Positions 1,917-63,148 of a stretch of 64,000 bases of DNA are shown here, in pieces. The notes under the pieces were generated by a model. The model was not told the DNA's origin. It saw only the letters and a program-made list of their open reading frames with translations, and ran no database searches. Numbering within the stretch: the stretch's first letter is position 1; each line of letters starts with the position of its first letter. A program made the translations under genes and the position numbers. Source of the stretch: a virus; the IMG/VR virus record IMGVR_UViG_3300010149_000002, positions 1 to 64,000 of that record; one strand, written 5' to 3'.

Positions 1917-1932
1917 TACTATAGTTGTTAAA
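1917..1932 (-). promoter_or_regulatory. Late promoter motif TTTAACAACTATAGTA (copy 1)
   Basis: Exact 16-mer, about 30 nt upstream of ATG 1886. Confidence 0.8.
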
Positions 1933-3495: not shown

Positions 3496-3511
3496 TACTA
3501 TAGTTGTTAAA
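3496..3511 (-). promoter_or_regulatory. Late promoter motif (copy 2), upstream of the capsid leader
   Basis: Exact 16-mer. Confidence 0.8.
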
Positions 3512-8201: not shown

Positions 8202-8217
8202 TACTATAGTTGTTAAA
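8202..8217 (-). promoter_or_regulatory. Late promoter motif (copy 3), upstream of portal
   Basis: Exact 16-mer. Confidence 0.8.
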
Positions 8218-10636: not shown

Positions 10637-11213
10637 ATTTTTTCATAAGCATTTCGCCTCTTTGAAGCTTTTCTTGCTTTAATCTCTCCATCATATCGTC
10701 TAATGCTTGTTTTCTCATCTGACTTTCCATCTCAGGTCTTGATTCTGCCATCATAGCTTCCATTGCAGCCTTTCTTTCCTCTGGAGATGCGTCTGGATTC
10801 TCTATAATACTATCAGGATCACCTGCTTCTTCTGGAAATGCTAACTCTCCTGCTAATCCTAGTGCTGCTCCTCCACCTAACTTACCTAATTTTCCTAGCT
10901 TACTTGCCATTTTAGGCATCTTCATACCTAATCTAGCTGTTTCATCTGCTATTGACTGAGGCTTTATACCTTCAGGAGCTTTCATTTTATCTGAATACTT
11001 CTTTAGGAAGTCCCTTGCGGCATCTGCTTCAGACTTATTAGCTGATTTTGCTGCAATTCTCTTTTCAATATCCCTAGCAAGTCTATCAGACTCGTCCAAC
11101 TTAGTTAAATTCTTTTGCATTTGCTCTGGTTGAATTAGATCAGTCATATCTGGATCAGTAGCTGCCATCAATGCTTTTCTATAGTTATACAAGGAATCGT
11201 CTTTTCCTGCCAT
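10623..11213 (-). CDS. Hypothetical late (possibly internal head) protein
   Basis: 196 aa; first gene after late motif copy 4. Confidence 0.6.
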   Translation of the reverse strand: MAGKDDSLYNYRKALMAATDPDMTDLIQPEQMQKNLTKLDESDRLARDIEKRIAAKSANKSEADAARDFLKKYSDKMKAPEGIKPQSIADETARLGMKMPKMASKLGKLGKLGGGAALGLAGELAFPEEAGDPDSIIENPDASPEERKAAMEAMMAESRPEMESQMRKQALDDMMERLKQEKLQRGEMLMKKYGKR

Positions 11214-11239
11214 TATATCTCCTAAATTAATACTTCAGT

Positions 11240-11255
11240 TACTATAGTTGTTAAA
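11240..11255 (-). promoter_or_regulatory. Late promoter motif (copy 4)
   Basis: Exact 16-mer at the strand switch. Confidence 0.8.
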
Positions 11256-11265
11256 AATTAAACAT

Positions 11266-11294
11266 TTGACATATATAATAGTATTTAGTATTAT
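11266..11294 (+). promoter_or_regulatory. Sigma-70-type promoter, divergent from the late promoter
   Basis: TTGACA-17-TATTAT upstream of an AGGAGG RBS. Confidence 0.7.
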
Positions 11295-11310
11295 TAATTA
11301 GGAGGTGTTT

Positions 11311-14258
11311 ATGCCAATTGGACATGTGAATACAGATTATATACTATTTCTTATAAATGATGAAGATGAAGCTGCTATTAAAGAGAAAGTAGAGGAGATT
11401 GCATTTGCTATAAAAATGGAATATAGGATGATACAAGATCTTGGGGAGGACATGTGGGAATTTTAATAGGATACTTATTAGGTTTTGCTTTTGCATGTAC
11501 TTATAGGTTTAATAAAATGGAAGGTGTAAGTAGTACGAAGATAATACTATCTAGTTTATTCTATCCTTTAGAATATATTATAGCTTTGTTTAATTTAGTA
11601 ACAGTTTTCTTTGGAGTCTACCTTGAGTTCCAAATTATGATTTTATTATCGGATAAAGAAAAAGAAAACATGACAGATAACGCACTACAGGCATTGCGTG
11701 ACAGACTTAACGAATTAGATGAAACAGAGGACGAAGATGAAGAAAAGTGACAGATGGTTAAAAGAATTGATGTCTATAGCACATATTCAAGGACTTACAT
11801 GGGCTGATGGTACTAATGCCAGAGAACAAGCCTTAAAGCAATGGGTAGATGATTGGATTGTAGAGTATAACTTTAATCAAGATATTATAAAAAAAGGATT
11901 GGATGCAGAGGAGATGAGATTTATTCAACATCACTGTGCAACTCAAGTAGGTGAGATGCTCATGGAAGAGTCCTCCTACTATAATCTTAGTAAGGATAAT
12001 GTATCAGTTAATGTCTTTACTTTAAGAAAAGGATAATAGATAGCCCTTTCGTTTTTCGTTTCACGAAAATACGAGGCTCCGACAAAGGTGTAATAATATG
12101 AAAACTTGGAAGGATTTTGAATTAGAAGTTGAAAAACTAGAACCACTTGACCCATTTCCACCAATGTACTATGTATGTTCTCATGGTGCAAGTGTTCGGT
12201 ATCCTGTATTGGTAAGTAAAGAAAATGCAGATTGGCTAAAGTCAGAGGGAGCAAAGGTTTACACAAGGGAAGAGTATCTAAACTTGAGGAAAAGATTATG
12301 AAAGAACAAGATTTAAAACTTTACATGAACAAAATAATGGAGTGTACCGTAGTAAAAACAACATTTTACACAGCTATAGGACAGTTTGAATTTACTGGAT
12401 CGCCAAAGGATTCTATGGTTAAGATGTCCGAATATATGATGTTATACGGTGATGTGATGTTCGATATTGAAAATATAAAGGTAAAAGAAATTGAAACTAC
12501 TAATAGTAATTCTGACAATAAGCACTAGATTACTCGCATTTGAGCCTTGTACTGCAGATTTTACTTTACTTACTATAAAAGGTCGTATAGAGTTAGGTAT
12601 AGCGTGTTCAACAGTATGGAAGCGTTATATAGTAATTTACCAAGAAGATAGACAGGAGATTTGGAAAAGATGGCTGATTTCAAACCAAAAGACGAAAAGT
12701 GTCCAGTATGCGATACCAAATGGACAAAGACAAACTTTGGAGCAAAAACATGGTACGACTGTAAACCATGTGGAAAGACTGCTGAAGACATTGTGGTTGT
12801 CAAATCCAAGGGTAAATCTGGTGGAACAAAAGAATACAAACTAGATAGCCTAGATGATTGGGAATCATTTATTGACATAATGAATATGGATGATGACTAT
12901 GATGGGTTATTCCAAATGGAGTATTTTGCTGATATAGAACCTAGAAAGGGACATAGTAGTTACATATCTCCAAATAAGAGATATAAAGTTAAGTACATGA
13001 CTAAGGCAGAGAAGTTTGAAATATGTAATGAATTAATGAGACAAGGTGTAATAGAAACTAATGAAGAGTTTTGGGATTTCCTACAAGGGGTGTAATATGA
13101 AAGAAAGAACTAAAGTAAAATTTGAAGACACAGACATAGCAACTGGTAATAGAAACGTCATTCATGGTACTATAGAGGCATTTAATGGCGACTATGTGTT
13201 TGTTGTAGGTTCTGATAACAAGTTCTATAAAGTATTTTATAATGAGCTAACTTATGTGGGGAGAGTATAATATGTTTAATGTAGGTGATAAAGTTTATTT
13301 TACTGATCCAGAAGATGGCAACATTCCTGCAGGATCGATTGGCATTATACAATCTCCAGAGAGCTATGATTGTTTCAATGTTAAGTTTGATAATATCAGA
13401 CACAGAAACCCATATGTCGATAGTGAAACTTGGCTATGTTGTGGGACTAATTTAGAATTAGTCCCAAAAGACCCTCAGAAGCCTTCAGACGATCTAACCC
13501 TTACCATACCATTAGTTGAGGGTGCAGATTACCTTAGAGGGCGATTTACGGACTCTAGAGGGGATGTTTATAGTGTACATGTAGAGAAGATTCAGTGTTT
13601 AGCCCAAAAAGAAGTGTAATATGAATACAACAATCAGTAATTTATATAAAGATATTAAAAATACATTAGTTATGCCACATAAGCTATATCGACACCTATA
13701 TGTTGAGTTTGAAAAGGACATATTAACTTGGACAGACCATAGTAAAGGGTATATATGTAATAAAAGGTCACTACATGGTATGGATTTAGAATCCAGTGCT
13801 TGGTGTGAAGAAAATTATGCGTATTATTGGGACAAACAAGGTAATGTACATAGTTTGATTATAGATTGGGACAAAGGAGTATTTAATGTTCCATCCGTTT
13901 GAGGATAAAGAAGAAGTAGAGAAGATTAAAAAAGAAAGGGATGATCTATTGCGACAATTAGAATCCTATGATATGGTAGATAGTGAGAAACGATTTCTAA
14001 TCAGAAGAATAGAGGTTATAACAGAGAAGCTTTTAGAAAAAGCTAAGTACTCTAAGAAGGAGTAATATGTTAGAAGTACTTAGAATAATTATATTAACAT
14101 GTCAGATATCTGGAAACAATCCATTTATTGTTAATAAAGAACAAAAAAAATGCCAAAGAGAGCTAATTGAATGTGTAGACAGTGTAAAAGTTAGTTCCGA
14201 CAAAGGGGGCAGTTGGGGATCTGAAAGACTAATAGAATGTATAAAGGATAGACAATGA
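11311..14258 (+). CDS. Operon of about 12 small hypothetical proteins (including ORFs 11311-11466 and 13886-14065, absent from the track)
   Basis: Tightly packed + ORFs with RBSs; ORF 12661-13095 has CxxC..CxxC. Confidence 0.55.
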
Positions 14259-14569
14259 AAAAACTAATTAGAGACAAAATACCAGAGTTTATAGAAGATA
14301 AGTCCAGATTAAGCCAAGAGAGCGATCCTAAGCTTATCACACAGTATATTGCTGCCAAGGTATTAGAAGAAGCACAGGAGCTTTCTGAGGCTATTTTAAG
14401 TGGCAATAAAGAGCATATTACAGAAGAGGCAGCGGATCTATATGAAGTATTGTATAAGGTATTGTCATATGTTGATAAGAGGTTTTATACTGTAGCAAGT
14501 ACCATGTTGGATAAAAGAAAGCTAAAAGGCGGATTTGATGATAACTGGATATTGGAAATAGATGATTAA
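14255..14569 (+). CDS. MazG-like / PRA-PH nucleotide pyrophosphohydrolase
   Basis: KLIRDKIP...KVLEEAQE...EEAADLYEV...KRKLKGGF signature. Confidence 0.8.
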   Translation: MKKLIRDKIPEFIEDKSRLSQESDPKLITQYIAAKVLEEAQELSEAILSGNKEHITEEAADLYEVLYKVLSYVDKRFYTVASTMLDKRKLKGGFDDNWILEIDD

Positions 14570-14697
14570 AGATAGAATTAAGAATTTACCCTATAAAAAA
14601 GAAAATAACATTACCAAATTATTAAGTATTTTTGTTACTATATGTTGGTTAATTTTTTATTTGTTTATAATATATAGTGTAATAAAATAGGAGAGTT

Positions 14698-14928
14698 ATG
14701 TATAAAATTTCTACAAAAGATATTGCAAAGGCAGTATTTAACTTAGGAAGAAGAAGCCCTACTAGTAAATATTTAGATATAGCTATAGAAATTTCGACAC
14801 TTGCAGAGCATTTTAAAGAAGAACCACCTAAAGGACTGTTCCCAATGTCATACCACACATTAGATTATGAAAAAGAATTAAAATACCACAATAGACTAAA
14901 AGAGTTAGTTGATAGATATAAAGTGTAA
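14698..14928 (+). CDS. Hypothetical protein
   Basis: 76 aa with AGGAG RBS. Confidence 0.55.
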   Translation: MYKISTKDIAKAVFNLGRRSPTSKYLDIAIEISTLAEHFKEEPPKGLFPMSYHTLDYEKELKYHNRLKELVDRYKV

Positions 14929-15005
14929 TAAAATAATATTGTAGACACGCACTCTCACACCCTAGTGGACACATCACACACACTCAGAAACCCTCACCCC
15001 TCCCC

Positions 15006-15061
15006 TGCAAGAACCATGCCAAAAACTTGGCATCATAATTGCATAGCAAGATACATGCCAA
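15006..15061. promoter_or_regulatory. Three abutting sigma-54 (-24/-12) boxes in alternating orientation
   Basis: Minus TTGGCATGGTTCTTGCA (15006-15022), plus TTGGCATCATAATTGCA (15027-15043), minus TTGGCATGTATCTTGCT (15045-15061); all GG-N10-GC. Confidence 0.75.
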
Positions 15062-15106
15062 CTCTCCTTAAGAAAACTTTAGCTGACAAACATATATTGT
15101 TTACAA

Positions 15107-15510
15107 AGAATATACGCACATGCCTACTATGTTGGGCAATGGACAACATCGGACTAAACATATTCTATTGAACTGCCACATATAGTTGGCTTACAGAATA
15201 CCCTCTAGAATCCATTTAAAAGAATTATATGATACCAAGGTAGGGTAAAATCTAAATGGATTGTAGGGCTATTTATGGGACGATAAGACATTGTCAAGAA
15301 CTTTATTAAAATGCGAGTAAAGTAAATGCGAGTTGACATTCAGGTTTTATGTCTTGTCAAGGGAATAATGCAATGTGAGTAATGAATCTAAATTGCTCGT
15401 ATTGATAAATGCGAGTTGTTGCTCACATTATAATTTGCTATATTGAATGTATAACATAACGCAACACGTTATTAACTACTAAAGGAGATTTATTTATGAA
15501 AAAATCATTT
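15107..15510 (+). repeat. Diverged duplicated regulatory module, copy 1
   Basis: Shares ordered sequence blocks with 16408-16765 (see findings). Confidence 0.75.
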
Positions 15511-15666
15511 AGCGACTCGAGAATTAAAGAAGCTCAAAGACTACTAGAAAACGCTTTAAATGCTCAAAATGAGCAGGAAATTAAAGAAGAGCTTAATGAG
15601 GTTAGACTCAAGGTTAGTACTCTTTTGGCTCAATTAGGACATGACTTTAACAAGGTAGGTGCATAA
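15496..15666 (+). CDS. Small early protein, 56 aa
   Basis: Not in the track. AAGGAG RBS; MKKSFSDSRIKEAQRLLENAL... Confidence 0.65.
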   Translation: MKKSFSDSRIKEAQRLLENALNAQNEQEIKEELNEVRLKVSTLLAQLGHDFNKVGA

Positions 15667-15667
15667 T

Positions 15668-15835
15668 ATGGGACAAACAACCAATAAATTATTAGAGTTA
15701 TTAGATGAGGGTATTTTAAATAAAGATACTGTAATTATGGCTTGCTTAAAGTATATGAGTGAGGATGATGTTAACGATATGGCATTGTTAAATGAATTTA
15801 TTGAAGATACTAATGAATATCCTGAGAATTTATAG
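15668..15835 (+). CDS. Small acidic early protein, 55 aa
   Basis: Not in the track. MGQTTNKLLELLDEG...ACLKYMSEDDV; resembles a recurring small phage protein type. Confidence 0.6.
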   Translation: MGQTTNKLLELLDEGILNKDTVIMACLKYMSEDDVNDMALLNEFIEDTNEYPENL

Positions 15836-15939
15836 GGGGGGGTAATGAAAAGCTTAGATTATATAATAATATTTTTACAGATAATTGCTATAATAATCGG
15901 TATCACTATAATAATTAATCATTTTATAATTGTATAATA

Positions 15940-16343
15940 CATAAACACATAAACGGAATTTATTTAGTTCAATATCCTACCTTATAAAGTGCCATTTTCT
16001 TGTGGCGATCTATTAGTACACTTCATTACACTGAGCATGGATGCTTAAAGTGCCTTATATTTTGGGCATTAAAAGACTTACTAGTAGCCGAAAAATTCTA
16101 CTAATTTGGTCATTTAATACCTAAACACTTATTGTTTACTTTCATGTTTGGCTTTAGCTATCGAGCTATTTATATAGTCATTTTATTTAGAGATTGCATA
16201 CTAAATAAAACTTATTGAGGCGTTCGGCAAGGTACTTAATCTCTCGACACCTTGTGATATACTAAACAGATTTTGTTTAGTGAGGCTATCCTAGTCGGCT
16301 CTCTCATGCAATTCTTATGCCATTTTTTAACCGTCCTCAATAT
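15940..16343 (+). ncRNA. Putative structured non-coding RNA, about 400 nt
   Basis: No substantial ORF; about 10 hairpins plus a long-range TATTGAGG/CCTCAATA stem; G-U pairs favour the + strand. Confidence 0.45.
16307..16322 (-). promoter_or_regulatory. Sigma-54 box
   Basis: Minus strand TGGCATAAGAATTGCA. Confidence 0.65.
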
Positions 16344-16359
16344 TACTATAGTTGTTAAA
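16344..16359 (-). promoter_or_regulatory. Late promoter motif (copy 5), with no downstream ORF
   Basis: Exact 16-mer inside the non-coding region. Confidence 0.75.
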
Positions 16360-16407
16360 TAATCTTTATTTGTCAAGTTATTTATTAAACCATATAAATT
16401 TTATCAC

Positions 16408-16765
16408 AGAATATACGAATATGCCAACTATTTTTGTAAGGCTAATTTGTTCTCTAAGAGCTTTAAAAGTTTTTTGAATACTAGGTTAAGGATAAAATCT
16501 AAATGGATTCTAGCCTATATTGTGTGCCTTATAGGGCTATATAGTAAGATTGTTTAGAGTGTTTTTAGTCCGATAAAATCAAATGTGAGTTGACATTCAG
16601 TTTATACATAGTGTCAAGAAAAAAATGAAATGTGAGCTTTATATATCATTTTGCTCGCATTCTCTAAAAGTGAGTAAATATATATTGAATAATCATATTT
16701 AATTTGCTATAATGAATATAGAGATTAACGCAATAAATAAAGGAATTACATGAAAACATCATTTT
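16408..16765 (+). repeat. Diverged duplicated regulatory module, copy 2, ending in an extended -10 promoter (TGCTATAAT)
   Basis: Block-wise similarity to 15107-15510. Confidence 0.75.
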
Positions 16766-17304
16766 TAAAAGAAAGCGAAGTAAGTCAAATTTTAAATGCA
16801 AACGATAGAAAGTGTGACTATAATGTACATAGTGGTGGGCGTGTGATAGTTAATCATGAAGCAGGTGCATACAATAGTGGAACTATCAGAAAAGTGAAAG
16901 GACTTGACAATATCTATATTGCTTCATGCTCACTTGATTTTGGTGGTCAGCAATGGGTTGAAGTTTACGATAAAAGAGACTTAAATGTAATAGCTTATTT
17001 AAAGTCTGTAAGGACTTTAACAGAATTAAAAAACAGTGAAAAAGCCCAAGAGGAGTTAAAAAATATTAACGATAATTTAATTTGCTTAGAAAATAAAGGA
17101 GTAGTATAAATGACACCTAATGAAAAAATGAATTTAAGGCATGAAGTTTGGTTTTCACTATCTACAAACCAAAGAAGAAAGTTAACTTCAAATGGAATTT
17201 ATGCAAATAATTTATATGATTGTCCAGTGTGGTTAATTGTAAAAGTTACACGTTCTAAAAAAATAATGGATAAGATGCGTAAAATATGGAAATGGTGGAC
17301 TTAA
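16750..17304 (+). CDS. Two hypothetical early proteins (16750-17109, 17110-17304)
   Basis: ORF track; RBSs present. Confidence 0.6.
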
Positions 17305-17316
17305 GGCGGTGGCATA

Positions 17317-17838
17317 ATGAAATTACAGATTGATAATACATTTAACTTTGAACAAAGAAAAGTTATTGATAAATATTTTGAAATTGCAAAGGAAAAATTT
17401 AATATTCAAGACAAAATAATTTCTATTGAGATTAAAAATAGTGGTCGATTAAAAACAAGTGCAGGAAATGCAACAATTTATAGAATAAAGAATTGTGGGA
17501 TTATTAAAATGAATAAAAGACTGTTTAATAGTACAGTAGGAATAAAAGAATTTGAAAACACATTTTCGCATGAGCTTGCCCATGTTATAGCTAATATAAT
17601 TCATAATTGTAATTGTGGACATGATGCAAGATGGAAAAGGACTCATATAGCCCTTGGCGGTAATGCAAAAAGGACTCATAACTATGATGTGAGTCATTTA
17701 AGACCTACTAAAAATCGTTTTGACTATAAGTGTAATTGTCAAATTTTTAAATTAAGTGCAGTAAGGCACAATAAAATGCAAAATGGTAAAGCAAAGTATT
17801 ACTGTAAAAAATGTAAAGAGTATCTAAAAAGAGTGTAA
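17317..17838 (+). CDS. SprT-like zinc metalloprotease
   Basis: 'LKTSAG.A', HELAH, 'GHDARWK', C-terminal CxC...CxxC. Confidence 0.85.
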   Translation: MKLQIDNTFNFEQRKVIDKYFEIAKEKFNIQDKIISIEIKNSGRLKTSAGNATIYRIKNCGIIKMNKRLFNSTVGIKEFENTFSHELAHVIANIIHNCNCGHDARWKRTHIALGGNAKRTHNYDVSHLRPTKNRFDYKCNCQIFKLSAVRHNKMQNGKAKYYCKKCKEYLKRV

Positions 17839-17882
17839 TTTTTACATAGTATATTGATGCAATGAATAAAAACTGATATAAT
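17834..17882 (+). promoter_or_regulatory. Early promoter with upstream TGTAA-N3-TTACA box
   Basis: TGTAATTTTTACATAGT, then TTGATG-17-TATAAT with TG extension. Confidence 0.75.
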
Positions 17883-17915
17883 AATTATAGAGAATAACAC
17901 AAAGGAGATAAAAAA

Positions 17916-19202
17916 ATGAATAATTACAAAGAAAACGGATTCAAAGATAGAAACGATTATTTAGACTTTTTAGCAGATGATTATGGTGTAAGTGCTTATC
18001 AAGTTCATGTGATTGCTCAAATGCTAGGGGAGTCAGAAGATTTTGACGGATTAATAACAAGTATTCAAGACTTAAGCGAAGGATTATAATGGAAAATTTA
18101 AGATACATTAAAACTAAAGAGAATTTTAAAAAAGATCAGATTGTTCAATTAACTGAACCTGATAAAGATAATCAAATTGTTAGACGTTATAGAGTTATTA
18201 TGTCAAGTGATTTATTTACAGATGAGAGTGATTTATATTATACAATTTTAGAAGAGATAAAAGGAAAGGTGCAATAATGAATAAAGAGCAATTAAAAATG
18301 ATGATAAAAAGCGTTAGGACTGATTTAGAGCTATTCAAGTCAAGCGGACAAGTCTATCTACTAGAAAGGATTGAAAGCAATATAAGAGCTTTAAAAGACT
18401 GGAGAAATAACCTAGCATTAAAAGGTAATGAAACAATAAAAGAGCGTATGTTATGGGCGATTTAATGCCAATTTTTGTGGGCATCTTTATGTGGTGGGTT
18501 ATTATGTCAATTGTAGAAGGTGATAAAAAAGGTAGGTAATTTTTACATAGTTCATTGACGCAATACAGATAATTTGATATAATATTTATAAGGAAAGTTA
18601 CTCGGACTCATGGAAGAGTCATTTTAAAGGAGATTAAAAAATGAATACAGAATTAAATAAAAATCAATTTACTAATAAAGTCGATAAAAGATTGAATGAA
18701 ATAATGGACGGTGTAAATTTTAGCACGTTATTAGATGAGGCGTGGGATTATGTTTGCGAAGTTCATAATGTATATGATGGGCAATTTAGTGAGTCTGATG
18801 AGCATGAAATTGAAAGGGAGCTGCATAAAAGGCATGGTTTTGATATGAGTTGGTATGATAAATTCAATCCAAGTCCACAGAAAAAAGCTGAAATTGCACA
18901 AAGAAAAATGAGTCAACTAGAAAAGTTTAGGCTTGAACAAGATCAAATAATGGATATGTATAAGGGTGGTGATTTTGATGAATAAATATGAGCAAATAAA
19001 ATTAGTTGAGGAGTCAGATTTTGTACTAAATGATATTTATTTAGGTTATTCAGAGTTTTGGGACAAGGTAAACGAAATTGATTTAGACCCTGAAAAACTT
19101 ACATTGTATGAAAAAGATATAGACATACTATATGATGCTCTAGTAGACTATATAAAGTTTAGAAGTAATTATAAAAATACATTAAAGGAGCTTATAAAAT
19201 GA
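17916..19202 (+). CDS. Cluster of small early proteins (17916-18089 not in the track; 18089-18277; 18277-18465; 18641-18985; about 18978-19202)
   Basis: RBS-led ORFs; the first carries 'Y.ENG..R.DYL..LADDYG...LG..EDFDGL'. Confidence 0.6.
18536..18583 (+). promoter_or_regulatory. Early promoter with upstream box
   Basis: GTAATTTTTACATAGT, then TTGACG-17-TATAAT. Confidence 0.8.
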
Positions 19203-19972
19203 TACAAATTAAAAATAGATTTACAGGTAATGTTATTAGAGAAGTTGAAAGTCTTAGTGAAGCTAATCTTAGGGGAGCTAATCTTAGGGGAGCTGATCTT
19301 AGTGAAGCTGATCTTAGGGGAGCTAATCTTAGGGGAGCTAATCTTAGGGGAGCTAATCTTAGTGAAGCTGATCTTAGTGAAGCTGATCTTAGTGAAGCTA
19401 ATCTTAGGGGAGCTGATCTTAGTGAAGCTAATCTTAGTGAAGCTAATCTTAGGGGAGCTAATCTTAGGGGAGCTGATCTTAGTGAAGCTGATCTTAGGGG
19501 AGCTAATCTTATGGTAGCTAATCTTAGTGAAGCTAATCTTAGTGAAGCTAATCTTAGTGAAGCTGATCTTATGGTAGCTAATCTTAGTGAAGCTAATCTT
19601 AGTGAAGCTAATCTTAGGGGAGCTAATCTTAGGGGAGCTGATCTTAGTGAAGCTGATCTTAGGGGAGCTAATCTTAGGGGAGCTAATCTTAGTGAAGCTG
19701 ATCTTAGTGAAGCTGATCTTAGTGAAGCTAATCTTAGGGGAGCTGATCTCGAAAAATGTAAAGGTATTCTATCATTTACTTGTGAAAAGCATTTAGGAAT
19801 ATATTTTAAATACGATAATGAATATTATTTTAAGATTGGTTGCATGACTAATACTGCTAAATGGTGGTTAGATAACTATAAAATAGTTGGTAAGATTGAA
19901 GAATATAGCGATAATGATATTAAAAAACATGGTATTATTTTAGAAGCTTATAGTAAAATAGAATTAGAATAA
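19199..19972 (+). CDS. Pentapeptide-repeat protein
   Basis: About 33 A(N/D)L(RG/SE/MV) repeats between '[10 protein letters not shown]' and a 'KIGC' C-terminal domain. Confidence 0.92.
19253..19750 (+). repeat. 15-bp coding tandem repeat GCTRATCTTAGKGRA
   Basis: Directly visible; encodes the pentapeptide repeats. Confidence 0.95.
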
Positions 19973-19990
19973 ACTAAAGGAGTTTATAAA

Positions 19991-20194
19991 ATGAAAATAG
20001 AGGACAAAGAATTTTTTGATTTTGAATTAGATGGCATCAATTTTGCAGACTATCCAGACTTCTGTGATGCGTTTATAATTAATGCCAGTGTAGTTGATGG
20101 GAGTGAACCAAGAAAAGCCACAGATAGCGAATTAGAGCTTCTCAATGATGATTCTAGTCTAGTCTATGAGCTTGTAATGGAGCAGATTTTTTAA
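19991..20194 (+). CDS. Acidic hypothetical protein
   Basis: 'DGI...DYPDFCDAFI..A......R.AT..ELE.LN' motif of a recurring small phage protein type. Confidence 0.65.
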   Translation: MKIEDKEFFDFELDGINFADYPDFCDAFIINASVVDGSEPRKATDSELELLNDDSSLVYELVMEQIF

Positions 20195-37640: not shown

Positions 37641-37748
37641 CGAAATGTAGCTCAGTTGGTTAGAGCACCTGACTATGAAGCAAGCGACTAGGTAACGAAA
37701 TCGTGAGGCGGAGGGAGGTCGGTGGTTCGATTCCACCCATTTCGACCA
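37641..37748 (+). tRNA. tRNA-like RNA (Pro-type acceptor) with an expanded, non-canonical anticodon arm
   Basis: Acceptor CGAAATG/CATTTCG-A-CCA, D arm GCTC-AGTTGGTTA-GAGC, T arm GGTGG-TTCGATT-CCACC; 108 nt; no canonical anticodon stem-loop. Confidence 0.8.
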
Positions 37749-43968: not shown

Positions 43969-44493
43969 TTGACTGAAAAGAACAAAAACATAATAAACCT
44001 CATTGGTGATATTGATGATGATTTTTTTAGAAAACTTGCAGTTGGTATTAGTGAAGCAAACCAAAAAAAAGATTTAGAGATAGTTTTAATGAGTGATGGT
44101 GGAAGTGTAAGTGTGGCAAGAGGTGCATACGACCTCATCAGGACATTTGAAAGTAATGTTTACATAAAATGTTTTGGTGAGGTTTCATCCTCTGCAACAT
44201 TGGTCCTACAAGCCGCAGATTTCCGTATAATGTATCCTAATGCAAAACTAATGATACATGTCGGGGAAAATGGCGGAGGAGGCTCAGGGCATCCTCGTAA
44301 CGATGAGAGGCTTCAAGAACAGAACAAGATAGATGAGACTTGGATGGAAGATATATACCTTAAAAAAATAAGAGAAAAAAAGCCAAGATTCACTAGGAAA
44401 AAGATAAAAGATATGTTAGAGTATGATACATACCTAAATCCAAAGGAGTCTTTGGAGTTTGGTTTAATTGACGAAATAGGAGTTGTTAAATGA
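43969..44493 (+). CDS. ClpP-like serine protease
   Basis: SDGGSV..A..YD, VSSSAT, LMIH, 'DTYLNPKESLEFGLIDEI'. Confidence 0.85.
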   Translation: MTEKNKNIINLIGDIDDDFFRKLAVGISEANQKKDLEIVLMSDGGSVSVARGAYDLIRTFESNVYIKCFGEVSSSATLVLQAADFRIMYPNAKLMIHVGENGGGGSGHPRNDERLQEQNKIDETWMEDIYLKKIREKKPRFTRKKIKDMLEYDTYLNPKESLEFGLIDEIGVVK

Positions 44494-44864
44494 TGAAGTG
44501 TGTAATTACAAGCGAAGAGACAAAGAATAAGACAAATAACTTTCCTTTATCTAGAAAAGGTAGGCTAATGTTGATTGACATTACAAATAGATATAATGAT
44601 AAACTAAAAGACAAGTTTATAGAGAGTTTTATTGAAAAGTCTGGTAATGAATCAGAAGAAACTATAAAAGCAGTATCTAAGTTAGCACCCAAGATGAGTA
44701 AACACGACATGTTAAAGATGCTTGATAAAGAGTCTGAGGAAGATTTGTTTGCAAAGTTTGATAATGTTGAAGAAGATAAACCCGCATTTGAAAAAGCAGT
44801 TGATGCTAAGTTAGAACAAAATAAAAAAGAAGCAGATTTAATTGAGGAATCTAATGACCAATAA
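44490..44864 (+). CDS. Hypothetical protein
   Basis: ORF track. Confidence 0.55.
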   Translation: MMKCVITSEETKNKTNNFPLSRKGRLMLIDITNRYNDKLKDKFIESFIEKSGNESEETIKAVSKLAPKMSKHDMLKMLDKESEEDLFAKFDNVEEDKPAFEKAVDAKLEQNKKEADLIEESNDQ

Positions 44865-45675
44865 AATAGATCAAGCAGAACTTCTTGCAGATCAAGAGGA
44901 CATGGGATTAGGGTTACATGAGGCTCCTGATAAACCACAACACTCTGGTAATGTAGCATTTTCTAAAGCTATGCTTGAATGTATACCTGATGAAGAAGTT
45001 CTACAGGAAGTTAAAGATAAGAATCCATTTCAATACAAATATGAGGTTAAGGTAAAGAAAGTGCCTAAGAAGCTCAAGAATGTTGCAGGATTGAAAGAAG
45101 GTCTTATAGGTAGGGTTGTAGAGGTTCTAAGTGATAAAGCTGTTATGGTGGATTTCTGGACTAAGACAAGTCCTGCTAAGTTTCCTATGAGGAGTTTATA
45201 TTTAGAGCTACATAAAACTAAAGAACAGGTTGAGATTGATGCAGGGATAATACCTGAAAAAGAGGTTATACAACCTATTAAAGAGGTTGAACCTGTTAAG
45301 GTTGCTCCTGTAAAGTTTGACCAAGGCAAACCTAGAATGGATCTAATTAGACCTGAGTTTACATTAGCTATTGGAGAGGCTTTGGCATACGGTGCTGAGA
45401 AGTACTCTGAAAAGCAAGGTGAAATGCCTAACTATTTAAAAGGTAATGGCTTCAATTATAGTAAGATTGTAGGAAGCCTTGAAAGGCATCTTGCACAGTG
45501 GAAAATGGGAGTAGATATTGATGATGAAAGTGGATTACATCATTTACAGTTAGCAGCAGCTAATTTACATTTTCTTTTAACTTATGAGTTGACCGATAAA
45601 GGGATAGATGATAGAGTTAAATTAGGATCTAAAAAAAGGAAGGCTAGTGAAGAAGGAGCCGAGAAAGGACTATAA
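44842..45675 (+). CDS. dATP/dGTP diphosphohydrolase-domain (DUF5664-like) protein with N-terminal extension
   Basis: KFDQGKPRMDLI...YGAEKY...SLERHL..W..G.D.D.ESGLHHL..AAANL. Confidence 0.8.
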   Translation: MRNLMTNKIDQAELLADQEDMGLGLHEAPDKPQHSGNVAFSKAMLECIPDEEVLQEVKDKNPFQYKYEVKVKKVPKKLKNVAGLKEGLIGRVVEVLSDKAVMVDFWTKTSPAKFPMRSLYLELHKTKEQVEIDAGIIPEKEVIQPIKEVEPVKVAPVKFDQGKPRMDLIRPEFTLAIGEALAYGAEKYSEKQGEMPNYLKGNGFNYSKIVGSLERHLAQWKMGVDIDDESGLHHLQLAAANLHFLLTYELTDKGIDDRVKLGSKKRKASEEGAEKGL

Positions 45676-47162: not shown

Positions 47163-47918
47163 ATGAAATTAATTTTATCGCTACTAATGGTTTGTAGCTT
47201 CTGTTTTGGAAAGGTAATCAATCTTACTGAAGAAAACAGCATTAACTTTAACAATAAATTTGATGGTCAGTTTGTTGCTAAAAAACAAATTGAAGCAGCT
47301 AACAAATGTTATACAAACGAAGGTAGTGATATCTATGTTGTATTATATACACCGGGGGGATCAGTACAAGCAGGTCAATTATTCTTTGATACTCTAAATG
47401 CTTTACCCTGTAACTTTCACACAATTACGATTTTCGCTGCCTCAATGGGATATCAAACAGTTCAAAATCTCAAGAATAGGTATATCCTACCGTCTGGAGT
47501 TTTAATGAGCCATAGAGCTAGTCTTAGCGGTGTAAGAGGTGAATTAGGAGGAGAGCTAGATAGTATCTTAGACTTCTTTAAACAAAGTATAAAAGAACTA
47601 GAAGTTACAGCATCTACTAGAGTTGGCATTAGTTTAGAAGATTACCAAAAAGCAATTTCAGATGAACTATGGATGACAGGAAACCAAGCTGTAAACACAA
47701 AGCATGCAGATGAGGTTGTATTAGTTAAATGTGATAAAAACTTTAAAGGTAGTTATGTACAGAAGTTTATGTCATTTTTTGGACCAGTAAACGTAGAGTT
47801 TGCTAATTGTCCTTTAATCGTATCTCCACTAAGTATTAAAAGCGGTAATCTTAAGATTATCAACCATGTAAATGATTTTTACACAAACATTCACAATTAC
47901 ATAACATTGGAGTTATAA
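47163..47918 (+). CDS. ClpP-like protease with N-terminal signal peptide
   Basis: MKLILSLLMVCSFCFG; TPGGSV, AASMG, LMSH, 'ELWMTGNQAV...ADEV'. Confidence 0.8.
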   Translation: MKLILSLLMVCSFCFGKVINLTEENSINFNNKFDGQFVAKKQIEAANKCYTNEGSDIYVVLYTPGGSVQAGQLFFDTLNALPCNFHTITIFAASMGYQTVQNLKNRYILPSGVLMSHRASLSGVRGELGGELDSILDFFKQSIKELEVTASTRVGISLEDYQKAISDELWMTGNQAVNTKHADEVVLVKCDKNFKGSYVQKFMSFFGPVNVEFANCPLIVSPLSIKSGNLKIINHVNDFYTNIHNYITLEL

Positions 47919-57313: not shown

Positions 57314-57329
57314 TACTATAGTTGTTAAA
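57314..57329 (-). promoter_or_regulatory. Late promoter motif (copy 6)
   Basis: Exact 16-mer. Confidence 0.8.
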
Positions 57330-63132: not shown

Positions 63133-63148
63133 TACTATAGTTGTTAAA
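63133..63148 (-). promoter_or_regulatory. Late promoter motif (copy 7)
   Basis: Exact 16-mer. Confidence 0.8.

What the first reader, a model, noticed from the sequence alone, without database searches (positions are those of the whole stretch)
15940..16343. Hairpin-dense ~400-nt putative non-coding RNA in the earliest transcript
Seen: consecutive stems GCCAT/GTGGC, TGAGCAT/ATGCTTA, AGTGCCT/GGGCATT, TAGTAG/CTACTA, TAAACA/TGTTTA, TGGCT/AGTCA and TTTTATTTAG/CTAAATAAAA. A multibranch domain closed by TATTGAGG (16213) / CCTCAATA (16335) contains CAAGGT/ACCTTG, ACTAAACAG/TTGTTTAGT and GGCTA/TAGTC. At least six stems have G-U pairs on the + strand that would be A-C mismatches on the - strand, which points to a + strand RNA. 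TAAAGTGCC opens two of the stems. I do not recognise the family. Inference: a phage structured RNA (decoy, anti-defence or regulatory), or ssDNA signals used during injection.
Basis: partly seen in the sequence, partly recalled or inferred. Interest (0 to 1): 0.72.

Follow-up and report, generated by a model that had tools for sequence, protein, structure and literature searches.

The report
Late-transcribed structured phage RNA gene
The hairpin-rich stretch is a real, conserved folded non-coding RNA of an uncultured water phage, but it most likely reads from the opposite strand, starting at one of the phage's late promoters, and it matches no described RNA family.

Summary
The window is 64 kb of a 78.8-kb uncultured phage. 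The finding lies in an 812-nt gene-free gap among + strand early genes.

Folding energy alone is unremarkable: z is about -2.5 on both strands, and the stretch ranks 51st (+) and 24th (-) of 392 same-size windows of this genome.

Comparison with relatives settles it. I found 9 other distinct homologues in metagenomic phages, 53-65% identical to the window's copy, while the flanking early genes are often unrecognisable.
- Window 16065-16342 is conserved. The first ~120 nt of the finding are not.
- Covariation is strong. On an unfitted alignment, 26 of 48 pairs change on both sides (0/500 shuffles). In the 5' domain, 22 of 26 do.

- An exact copy of the phage's late-promoter motif (16344-16359, - strand) lies 1 nt from the first helix, and the same motif lies 4-13 nt upstream of it in 9 of 10 phages.
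- Wobble pairs favour the - strand, 25 to 4.
- A related compact RNA in relatives has its own promoter in that orientation.

No Rfam family matches. The function is unknown. My best guess is a trans-acting folded RNA made late in infection.

The scan had noted this same stretch, on this genome only.

The parts
16344..16359 (-). Late-promoter motif TTTAACAACTATAGTA. It points leftwards into the element.
   Evidence: There are 8 copies in the genome, all on the - strand. The other seven lie in the - strand virion-gene blocks, five of them 21-32 nt before a start codon. The same motif lies 4-13 nt upstream of the element in 9 of 10 relatives.
16065..16342 (-). Conserved core of the structured RNA, about 278 nt in two domains
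   Evidence: nhmmer and BLAST find homologues. Covariation is strong. MFE z = -3.25.
16335..16342 (-). Helix He, 5' arm (TATTGAGG). It closes domain I.
   Evidence: All 8 pairs change on both sides across 13 sequences; 92% of cells are paired.
16213..16220 (-). Helix He, 3' arm (CCTCAATA)
16331..16333 (-). Helix Hx, 5' arm (CGG). It lies inside the near-invariant GACCGU block.
   Evidence: It pairs with 16225-16227 (CCG). The window has G-C where the other 12 sequences have C-G, a compensated swap inside two otherwise invariant motifs.
16225..16227 (-). Helix Hx, 3' arm, inside the GCGGAAC block
16296..16322 (-). Hairpin Ha (UGGC...GCCG), closed by a conserved U-G pair
   Evidence: All 5 pairs change on both sides. 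The closing U-G is present in 10 of 13 sequences.
16257..16289 (-). Arm Hb0 (ATA/TAT), carrying the lineage-specific hairpin Hb (ACTAAACA/TGTTTAGT)
   Evidence: All 4 Hb0 pairs change on both sides in relatives: ATCG/CGAT, CACA/TGTG, CTCG/CGAG.
16228..16254 (-). Hairpin Hc (CAAGGT/ACCTTG), with a conserved CGA...AAG loop
   Evidence: The arm sequences differ in almost every relative but stay complementary.
16180..16211 (-). Variable hairpin Hf
   Evidence: It is present with unrelated sequences in four lineages and absent in the L100-type clade.
16155..16168 (-). Hairpin Hg (TAGCT/AGCTA)
   Evidence: 91% of cells are paired, with one A-U to U-A flip.
16123..16149 (-). Hairpin Hh (AAACA/TGTTT), with a conserved GAAAGU in its loop
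   Evidence: 6 of 8 pairs change on both sides.
16065..16121 (-). Helix Hi (GGTATTAAA/TTTAATGCC), enclosing hairpin Hj (TTAGTAG/CTACTAG) and the invariant UACUAGUAA block
   Evidence: Hi position 3 runs C-G, U-G, U-A across relatives.
16046..16072 (-). Weak hairpin plus CUUUA (T1). It shares AUGCC with Hi.
   Evidence: Read directly from the sequence. Its function is inferred.
15985..16006 (-). Weak hairpin plus CUUUAUAA (T2), the likely 3' end of the transcript
   Evidence: It has the same GGCACUUUA tail as T1. L100 has a GC-rich hairpin with a UUUAUAA tail at the same relative place.
15940..16045 (.). Non-conserved left part of the finding
   Evidence: It does not align with G002, and no nhmmer match extends into it.

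Best explanation
Window 16065-16342 is the core of a gene for a structured non-coding RNA, read from the - strand.

Transcription. It starts at the late-promoter motif at 16344-16359. It probably ends at one of two weak hairpin-plus-U sites, 16072-16046 or 16006-15985. That gives an RNA of roughly 280-365 nt, made together with the virion genes.

Fold. There are two domains.
- Domain I (16213-16342) is a multi-helix junction. Helix He closes it. A 3-bp helix Hx follows. Three arms, Ha, Hb0 and Hc, radiate from a junction lined with near-invariant unpaired blocks: GACCGU-A-rich, GACUAGG, UAC and GCGGAAC.
- Domain II (16065-16211) is a row of hairpins: Hf, Hg, Hh, and Hj inside Hi.

What is shown: conservation, the base-paired architecture, the absence of coding potential, and the conserved adjacency of the late promoter.

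What is inferred: the strand (likely), the transcript ends, and the function.

Mechanism I commit to. The RNA acts in trans as a folded molecule. Its conserved junction core binds a partner, a protein or small ligand, during the late phase of infection. It does not act by antisense pairing or as a leader of a gene. I put about 0.3 on this specific reading, and about 0.7 on 'late-transcribed - strand structured RNA gene of a new family'.
For: 1. Homologues. There are 10 distinct copies in phages whose terminases are only 46-81% identical (win, L088, L174, L127, L112, L100, L102, L184, L182, L190). The other nine are 53-65% identical to the window's copy, while most flanking early genes give no DNA match.

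2. Covariation on the unfitted MAFFT alignment A6. 78.3% of cells are paired against 65.1 +/- 1.5 in shuffles. 26 of 48 pairs change on both sides against 15.2. The covariation score is 0.391 against 0.186 (0/500), and 0.05-0.12 for slid partners.

3. Domain I on the model-fitted alignment A10. 86.5% of cells are paired against 62.7. 22 of 26 pairs change on both sides. The score is 0.586 against 0.183.

4. Late motif. There are 8 copies, all on the - strand, and the other seven lie in the virion-gene blocks. The motif sits directly upstream of the element in 9 of 10 phages.

5. Strand.
- Wobble cells are 25 on the - strand against 4 on the + strand, or 15 against 4 without the invariant U-G.
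- All 3 single substitutions inside core stems between the 89%-identical pair G002 and L174 switch a Watson-Crick pair and a G-U pair on the - strand.
- Shuffle z is better on the - strand in 6 of 7 copies.
- The - strand is A-rich, unlike the flanks.

6. In G002/L174, L184, L182 and L190, a + strand hairpin followed by a U-run lies just before the element. L100 and L190 have a hairpin followed by a U-run after it on the - strand.

7. A covariance model of domain I finds a compact 106-nt relative in L100, L103, L190 and, more weakly, other loci. That RNA has its own TTGACA-N17-TATATT promoter and a covarying terminator in the same orientation as the model. The fold is therefore a free-standing RNA module.

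8. No coding potential. All six frames are full of stops. The mini-ORF after the AUG is 2-10 codons long, and the AUG is missing in L184 and L182.
Against: - No transcript data exist, so the strand is inferred.
- The outer pairs of He covary, so they must be in the RNA. He starts only 1 nt after the 16-nt motif in the window. Transcription would then have to start inside or right after CTATAG, not about 7 nt past a TATAGT -10 box. No phage RNA polymerase or sigma factor was recognised.
- Domain II shows no wobble asymmetry: on alignment A6, 10 G-U cells (- strand) against 12 A-C cells (+ strand wobbles) in Hg, Hh, Hi and Hj.
- Hc is flanked by a conserved A/C that would be a G-U on the + strand.
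- A conserved T-run follows Ha on the + strand and could be read as a terminator tail.
- RNAalifold energies are equal on both strands (-46.3 and -45.9).
- The terminators downstream are weak in the window and not uniform among relatives.
- The wobble count in A10 comes from an alignment fitted by a - strand model.
Confidence: 0.68

Rival explanations
1. The + strand is the functional one. The element is then a structured 3' UTR or attenuator at the end of the small early operon (15496-15937) driven by promoter module A. The hairpin Ha plus the conserved T-run would act as its terminator, just before the next early promoter module.
For: - The early promoter module at 15230-15470 and three small + strand ORFs lie upstream, with no clear + strand terminator in the window.
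- The T-run after Ha is conserved on the + strand.
- Conserved wobble-compatible positions on the + strand flank Hc and lie in Hh.
- RNAalifold energies are equal on both strands.
Against: - The wobble count is 25 to 4 for the - strand in domain I, and 3 of 3 recent single substitutions are tolerated only on the - strand.
- + strand terminators precede the element in at least four relatives.
- Ha stems of 3-6 bp with 14-19-nt loops are poor terminators.
- The compact relative has its promoter in the - sense of the model.
- The adjacency of the late promoter would be unexplained.
Confidence: 0.12
2. The - strand late transcript works mainly as a cis-antisense silencer of the early genes to its left. 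The structured part would only be a stabilising 5' domain.
For: - The late promoter faces into the + strand early genes in every phage.
- The terminators in the window are weak, so read-through into 15937-15496 is possible.
Against: - Conservation and covariation lie in the gene-free core, not opposite any gene.
- The antisense targets differ between phages.
- GC-rich hairpins (L100, L184, L182) and a two-way terminator (L190) separate the element from the early genes.
- The compact relative has no antisense target at all.
Confidence: 0.12
3. It is a DNA-level element, such as a replication origin, a packaging signal or a cluster of protein-binding palindromes. Alternatively, single-stranded DNA hairpins are used during injection.
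For: - It is a long gene-free gap with many inverted repeats and an adjacent promoter.
- The invariant ACTAG blocks could be protein-binding sites.
Against: - Arm sequences are replaced wholesale while complementarity is kept, with 14-20-nt loops. That is not how dimer-binding palindromes evolve.
- Wobble use is asymmetric between the strands.
- The same fold occurs as a promoter-to-terminator unit elsewhere.
- There is no skew change beyond that of transcription direction.
Confidence: 0.05
4. The hairpins are chance features of AT-rich spacer DNA, or the remains of a decayed gene.
For: By energy alone the stretch is not an outlier in this genome.
Against: There are 10 homologues with conserved blocks and compensated changes. 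No frame is conserved.
Confidence: 0.02

Closest known systems
Orphan phage-associated structured RNAs known only from comparative genomics (GOLLD RF01998, ROOL RF03087, EGFOA RF02955)
   Same: - Carried by phages and found mostly in environmental sequence.
- Multi-helix fold supported by covariation.
- No associated ORF and unknown function.
   Different: - None of these models matches the window or six relatives, at gathering score or at E up to 10.
- It is much smaller than GOLLD or ROOL.
- It is driven by a phage late promoter.
phi29 pRNA (Rfam RF00044)
   Same: - A phage-encoded, free-standing structured RNA that acts as a folded molecule in virion production.
- It would be the model if the late timing here reflects a role in assembly.
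   Different: - No sequence or structure match.
- pRNA (from my own knowledge) is about 120-174 nt, is made from an early promoter at the genome end of small protein-primed podoviruses, and works through two interlocking loops.
- None of this was seen here.
T4 stable RNAs rnaC and rnaD (species 1 and 2)
   Same: Small, stable, structured phage RNAs of still unknown function.
   Different: - They lie in the tRNA cluster and are processed from tRNA precursors.
- There is no similarity to them, and no tRNA neighbour here.
Phage cis-antisense RNAs (lambda OOP, P22 sar)
   Same: Transcribed against the direction of neighbouring early genes.
   Different: - Those are about 70-nt simple hairpins that act by overlapping their target.
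- Here the conserved part overlaps no gene and has an elaborate conserved fold.

Membership tests
Any Rfam 15 family (4227 covariance models) | Score at or above the family's gathering threshold | tested here: not met
   There is no match at the locus in the window or in six relatives. At E up to 10 only chance snoRNA hits appear.
tRNA or tRNA-like element | Cloverleaf with a T-loop and D-loop, detectable by ARAGORN or RF00005 | tested here: not met
   ARAGORN finds nothing in the window or in 8 loci. RF00005 matches only 37641-37745. The junction linkers (8, 6, 2-3 and 0 nt) differ from those of tRNA.
Riboswitch or cis-regulatory leader | Aptamer in the 5' UTR of a gene on the same strand, with an expression platform | tested here: not met
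   No - strand ORF follows the element in the window or in the relatives. The compact relative ends at its own terminator before the late promoter. The junction-centred conservation is aptamer-like, so 'works like an aptamer' is not excluded.
6S RNA | Long, nearly continuous rod with a central open-promoter-like bubble | tested here: not met
   The consensus fold is a multi-branch junction plus a row of hairpins. There is no RF00013 match.
phi29-type pRNA | RF00044 match, two interlocking loops, early promoter at the genome end of a protein-primed phage | tested here: not met
   There is no Rfam match. The promoter is the late motif. The phage has a family A DNA polymerase and a large terminase. 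Loop-loop pairing was not tested.
Intrinsic terminator cluster | GC-rich short-loop hairpins followed by a U-run | tested here: not met
   The consensus scan finds no site in 11000-20000. Only two weak hairpin-plus-CUUUA sites lie outside the conserved core.
cis-antisense RNA | The conserved part overlaps the target gene on the other strand | tested here: not met
   The core 16065-16342 overlaps no ORF with coding support. Read-through beyond T2 cannot be tested.

The most novel reading that the evidence does not exclude
A new family of phage RNAs built around one conserved junction core comes in two forms. One is a compact 106-nt form made from a host-type promoter at the head of the late gene block. 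The other is a 280-nt two-domain form made from a late promoter. The core would be a binding or catalytic centre, for example an RNA subunit of the late-expression or virion-assembly machinery, a ligand sensor, or a ribozyme. The two forms would act at different stages of infection.
Probability: 0.2. Interest if true: 0.85.

Novelty: new variant of a known kind. Interest (0 to 1): 0.66.

Why it matters
Few phage non-coding RNAs have a known job, and almost none is tied to the late programme. This RNA has a defined promoter, a covariation-backed fold with invariant junction nucleotides, and a compact paralogue in sister phages. The stretch therefore becomes a testable RNA gene. The RNA can be synthesised, probed, used as bait for partners, and looked for in metatranscriptomes. 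The same work also defined the late-promoter motif of an uncultured aquatic phage clade, and that motif proved a practical handle for finding its relatives.

Tried and rejected
- Similarity searches. megablast and blastn of the gap against 50,697 phage records gave no match. The same held for the compact relative.
- Neighbouring genes as handles. The 119-aa and SprT-like proteins gave no confirmed locus in IMG/VR or JGI contigs. The single terminase query also gave none.
- Early-module motif AATGYGAGTTGACATTCAG in IMG/VR: no match.
The ENA and Logan contigs holding the SprT homologues could not be fetched.
- Hidden coding region or recoded stop codons: rejected, because all six frames hold 15-41 stops of all three kinds.
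- Conserved mini-ORF after the AUG: rejected. Its length varies from 2 to 10 codons, and the AUG is absent in L184 and L182.
- Long-range helix proposed by RNAalifold (GGGCAUUAAAAG with UUUUAACCGUCC): rejected. L127 cannot form it, whereas the competing local helix Hi is perfect there and covaries.
Only domain I was modelled.
- Phage RNA polymerase or sigma factor to explain the late motif: none recognised by Pfam or PHROGs.
- Element pattern in 185,579 prokaryote genomes: no match. No host or prophage copy was found.
- Literature search for a described late-promoter phage RNA of this kind: nothing relevant. EGFOA is not mentioned in the main text of PMC5737381.

Full report
SETTING

The window is bases 1-64000 of a 78,841-bp IMG/VR phage record. 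Its 123-bp terminal repeat is short enough to be an assembly overlap, so no physical genome end is established. Virion genes (capsid, portal, terminase) lie on the - strand at 1-11.2 kb and beyond 49 kb. Early and replication genes lie on the + strand from about 11.3 to 48.8 kb. The best match among cultured phages is weak: DNA polymerase is 47% identical to a Flavobacterium phage, and the portal is 28% identical to a Silvanigrella phage. Genes use Shine-Dalgarno sites. The host is unknown.

The finding lies in an 812-nt gap without ORFs (15938-16749). All six frames carry 15-41 stops of all three kinds, so neither a hidden gene nor a recoded stop explains the gap.

THE OBSERVATION

The listed stems are in the sequence. 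By energy they are not striking.
- MFE is -85.1 kcal/mol on + (z -2.46) and -90.1 on - (z -2.62).
- I folded 392 windows of 400 nt across the genome and regressed MFE on G+C. The stretch ranked 51st on + and 24th on -.
- No Rfam family matches at gathering score or at E up to 10.

SURROUNDINGS

- The right part of the gap (about 16480-16735) is a copy of the promoter module upstream of the small operon at 15496.
- A 16-nt motif, TTTAACAACTATAGTA, occurs 8 times in the genome, always on the - strand.
- Seven of the eight copies lie in the - strand virion-gene blocks, five of them 21-32 nt upstream of a start codon. The motif is therefore the late promoter, or at least the late control site.
- The eighth copy, perfect, is at 16344-16359 and points leftwards into the hairpin region.

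FINDING RELATIVES

Other routes worked.
- Scanning IMG/VR for the late motif itself gave 78 loci. tblastn showed about a dozen to be true relatives.
- One of them, G002 (L088, 19.2 kb), is collinear with the window. Its portal is 86% and its terminase 81% identical, and its early proteins 35-67%. It matches window 16065-16360 at 70% DNA identity, while most neighbouring early genes give no DNA match.
- G002 has the same layout: three small + strand genes, the element, the late motif on the - strand, then a promoter region and more early genes.
- A terminase alignment brought in 80 metagenome loci. nhmmer found the element in L127, L112, L100 and L102.
- Block patterns found L174, L184, L182 and L190.
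- G006, a 74-kb record, holds the L174 type.

In all there are 10 distinct copies. The other nine are 53-65% identical to the window's copy.

The conserved part is window 16065-16342. The first ~120 nt of the finding do not align.

STRUCTURE

The helices, in window coordinates on the - strand, were checked.

Domain I:
- He, 16342-16335 with 16220-16213.
- Hx, 16333-16331 with 16227-16225.
- Ha, 16322-16319 with 16299-16296.
- Hb0, 16289-16287 with 16259-16257, carrying an extra hairpin Hb.
- Hc, 16254-16249 with 16233-16228.
- The junction strands are near-invariant: GACCGU-A-rich, GACUAGG, UAC and GCGGAAC.

Domain II:
- Hf, a variable hairpin that is absent in the L100-type clade.
- Hg, Hh, and Hi enclosing Hj.

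Covariation:
- On the unfitted MAFFT alignment of 7 sequences, 78.3% of cells pair against 65.1 +/- 1.5 in shuffles.
- There, 26 of 48 pairs change on both sides against 15.2 +/- 2.3, and the covariation score is 0.391 against 0.186 (0/500). Sliding the partners by 1-3 columns gives 0.05-0.12.
- This holds although three sequences are misaligned by one column in Hb0 and Hc, which makes the count conservative.
- For domain I, on the alignment made by the covariance model (13 distinct rows, fitted to the model), 86.5% of cells pair against 62.7. 22 of 26 pairs change on both sides. The score is 0.586 against 0.183.
- Inside two otherwise invariant motifs, the window has CGG/CCG where the other 12 sequences have CCG/CGG. 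This is a clean compensated swap.
- An RNAalifold long-range helix was rejected, because L127 cannot form it while the competing helix Hi is perfect there.
- The window's core folds at -65.0 kcal/mol on the - strand, z = -3.25. The MFE reproduces He, Hb, Hc, Hf, Hg, Hi and Hj.

WHICH STRAND

Evidence for the - strand:
(a) The late motif lies directly upstream in 9 of 10 phages. In L112 a DUF559 endonuclease ORF sits there instead.
(b) In domain I, G-U cells number 25 on the - strand against 4 A-C cells (wobbles on +), or 15 against 4 without the invariant U-G of Ha. The alignment was fitted by a - strand model, which may inflate this.
(c) Between G002 and L174, which are 89% identical, the three single substitutions inside core stems all switch a Watson-Crick pair and a G-U pair on the - strand. 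A fourth change is a double compensation.
(d) Shuffle z-scores are better on the - strand in 6 of 7 copies.
(e) The - strand is A-rich, against the skew of the flanking + strand genes.
(f) In G002/L174, L184, L182 and L190, a hairpin with a U-run on the + strand lies just before the element, which would stop early transcripts. L100 and L190 have a hairpin with a U-run on the - strand after it.
That is the 3' half of a hairpin plus a U-rich tail, twice (16072-16046 and 16006-15985).
(h) The domain I model finds a compact 106-nt relative, described below, whose own promoter lies in the model's orientation.

Evidence against, or neutral:
- RNAalifold energies are equal on both strands.
- Domain II shows no wobble asymmetry.
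- Conserved A/C positions flank Hc and lie in Hh.
- A conserved T-run follows Ha on the + strand.
- He begins only 1 nt after the 16-nt motif in the window, so transcription would have to start at or just after CTATAG.
- I found no phage RNA polymerase or sigma factor.

I rate the - strand at roughly 0.8.

THE COMPACT RELATIVE

Model R1 (domain I) matched further sites on the late-gene strand.
- The sites are L103/L166 (48.7 bits), L100 7926-8031 and L190 2842-2947 (38.3 bits), L138 (32.8 bits) and weaker ones.
- They share the He stem, GACCGUGAAA, a U-G-closed Ha, UAC, an Hc with a CGA...AAG loop, and GCGGAAGG. ARAGORN sees no tRNA there, and Rfam sees nothing.
- In five loci the layout is the same. 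A TTGACA-N17-TATATT or TATAAT promoter comes first, then the 106-nt RNA.
- About 60 nt later comes a hairpin with covarying arms (UUAGAC/GUCUAA, UUAAUC/GAUUAA, UUAUUC/GAAUA) followed by UGGUUUUU.
- The late motif lies about 110 nt further on, followed by the first late gene.

The junction fold therefore also exists as a promoter-to-terminator RNA gene. The window's phage lacks this form.

WHAT IT IS, AND HOW IT LIKELY WORKS

Shown:
- a conserved non-coding element with a covariation-supported two-domain fold;
- a late control motif always at one end;
- no matching described family.

Inferred:
- a - strand late transcript of about 280-365 nt.

Function is not shown. Three observations argue for a molecule that works through its fold and binds a protein or ligand, rather than through antisense pairing or control of a downstream gene.
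- The invariant unpaired nucleotides concentrate around a multi-helix junction.
- The same core recurs in two transcription contexts.
- No gene follows on the same strand.

I commit to that reading at about 0.3.

An antisense role against the early genes is possible in the window, where the terminators are weak. It does not fit the relatives that have strong hairpins or terminators, nor the compact form. An origin or packaging signal does not fit wholesale arm replacement with kept complementarity, nor the strand asymmetry.

COMPARISON AND NOVELTY

The nearest known things are orphan phage-associated RNAs (GOLLD, ROOL, EGFOA), phi29 pRNA, T4 rnaC/rnaD and small phage antisense RNAs. It is a member of none of them (see membership tests). 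I found no description in Rfam 15 or in a full-text search. It is a new family within a known kind of thing. The scan had noted this same stretch twice on this genome, but not on other DNA.

LIMITS

- There is no expression data and no cultured host.
- There are only 10 sequences, some of them related in clades.
- Cells in the wobble counts are not independent.
- The full-length covariance model could not be built.

Noticed in passing
L100:7926-8031 (+); also L103:1631-1738, L190:2842-2947 (-), L166:22-129; weaker L184:9029-9134, L182:6033-6170, L138:59-180, L136:137-256: A compact 106-nt RNA with G+C about 0.5 shares the junction core of the element. It has its own TTGACA-N17-TATATT promoter and a covarying terminator. 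It sits between the early and late gene blocks, about 170 nt before the late motif of the first late gene. It is absent from the window's phage.
   Followed up: partly
window 1917-1932, 3496-3511, 8202-8217, 11240-11255, 16344-16359, 57314-57329, 63133-63148; one variant at G000 69229-69244: The late control motif TTTAACAACTATAGTA occurs 8 times, always on the - strand, and is shared by relatives. Scanning IMG/VR for this motif was what found the phage's relatives. No polymerase or sigma factor that could read it was recognised.
   Followed up: partly
window 15230-15470 and 16480-16735: An early promoter module is duplicated. Both copies carry AAATGYGAG boxes, TTGACA facing TGTCAA, and TAATTTGCTATAWTGAAT, and each lies upstream of a + strand gene.
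   Followed up: partly
window 14929-15100: A second conserved non-coding stretch holds a C/A-rich tract followed by the palindromes ATGCCAAAAACTTGGCAT and TTGCATAGCAA. In G002 the match (73% over window 14715-15045) runs from the neighbouring gene into this tract.
   Followed up: no
window 37641-37745: Rfam calls a tRNA here (50.9 bits) with 44 nt, against 13 in the model, in the anticodon arm. This may be an intron or other insertion. ARAGORN does not report it.
   Followed up: partly
L112:2770-3327 (+): In one relative a DUF559 (Vsr-like endonuclease) ORF sits where the other phages have the upstream half of the late motif. It ends inside the start of the element and looks like a mobile endonuclease insertion.
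   Followed up: partly
window 44842-45675 and 14255-14569: The phage has a protein with a dATP/dGTP diphosphohydrolase N-terminal domain and a MazG/PRA-PH-like pyrophosphohydrolase. Both suggest editing of the nucleotide pool, perhaps for a modified base. No PurZ-like gene was seen.
   Followed up: no
window 43969-44493 and 47163-47918: Two Clp-protease-like genes lie on the + strand near the end of the early/middle block.
   Followed up: no
L100:8095-8198 and the same place in L103, L190, L184, L182: About 100 nt between the compact RNA's terminator and the late motif are conserved in sequence (TATATAAGGGTAGTGGAAAGCTAT...ATTATTCAA). This may be the control region of the first late promoter.
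   Followed up: no
G000 1-123 and 78719-78841: The 123-bp direct terminal repeat is short and may simply be the overlap of a circular assembly. The window's coordinate 1 need not be a physical genome end.
   Followed up: no
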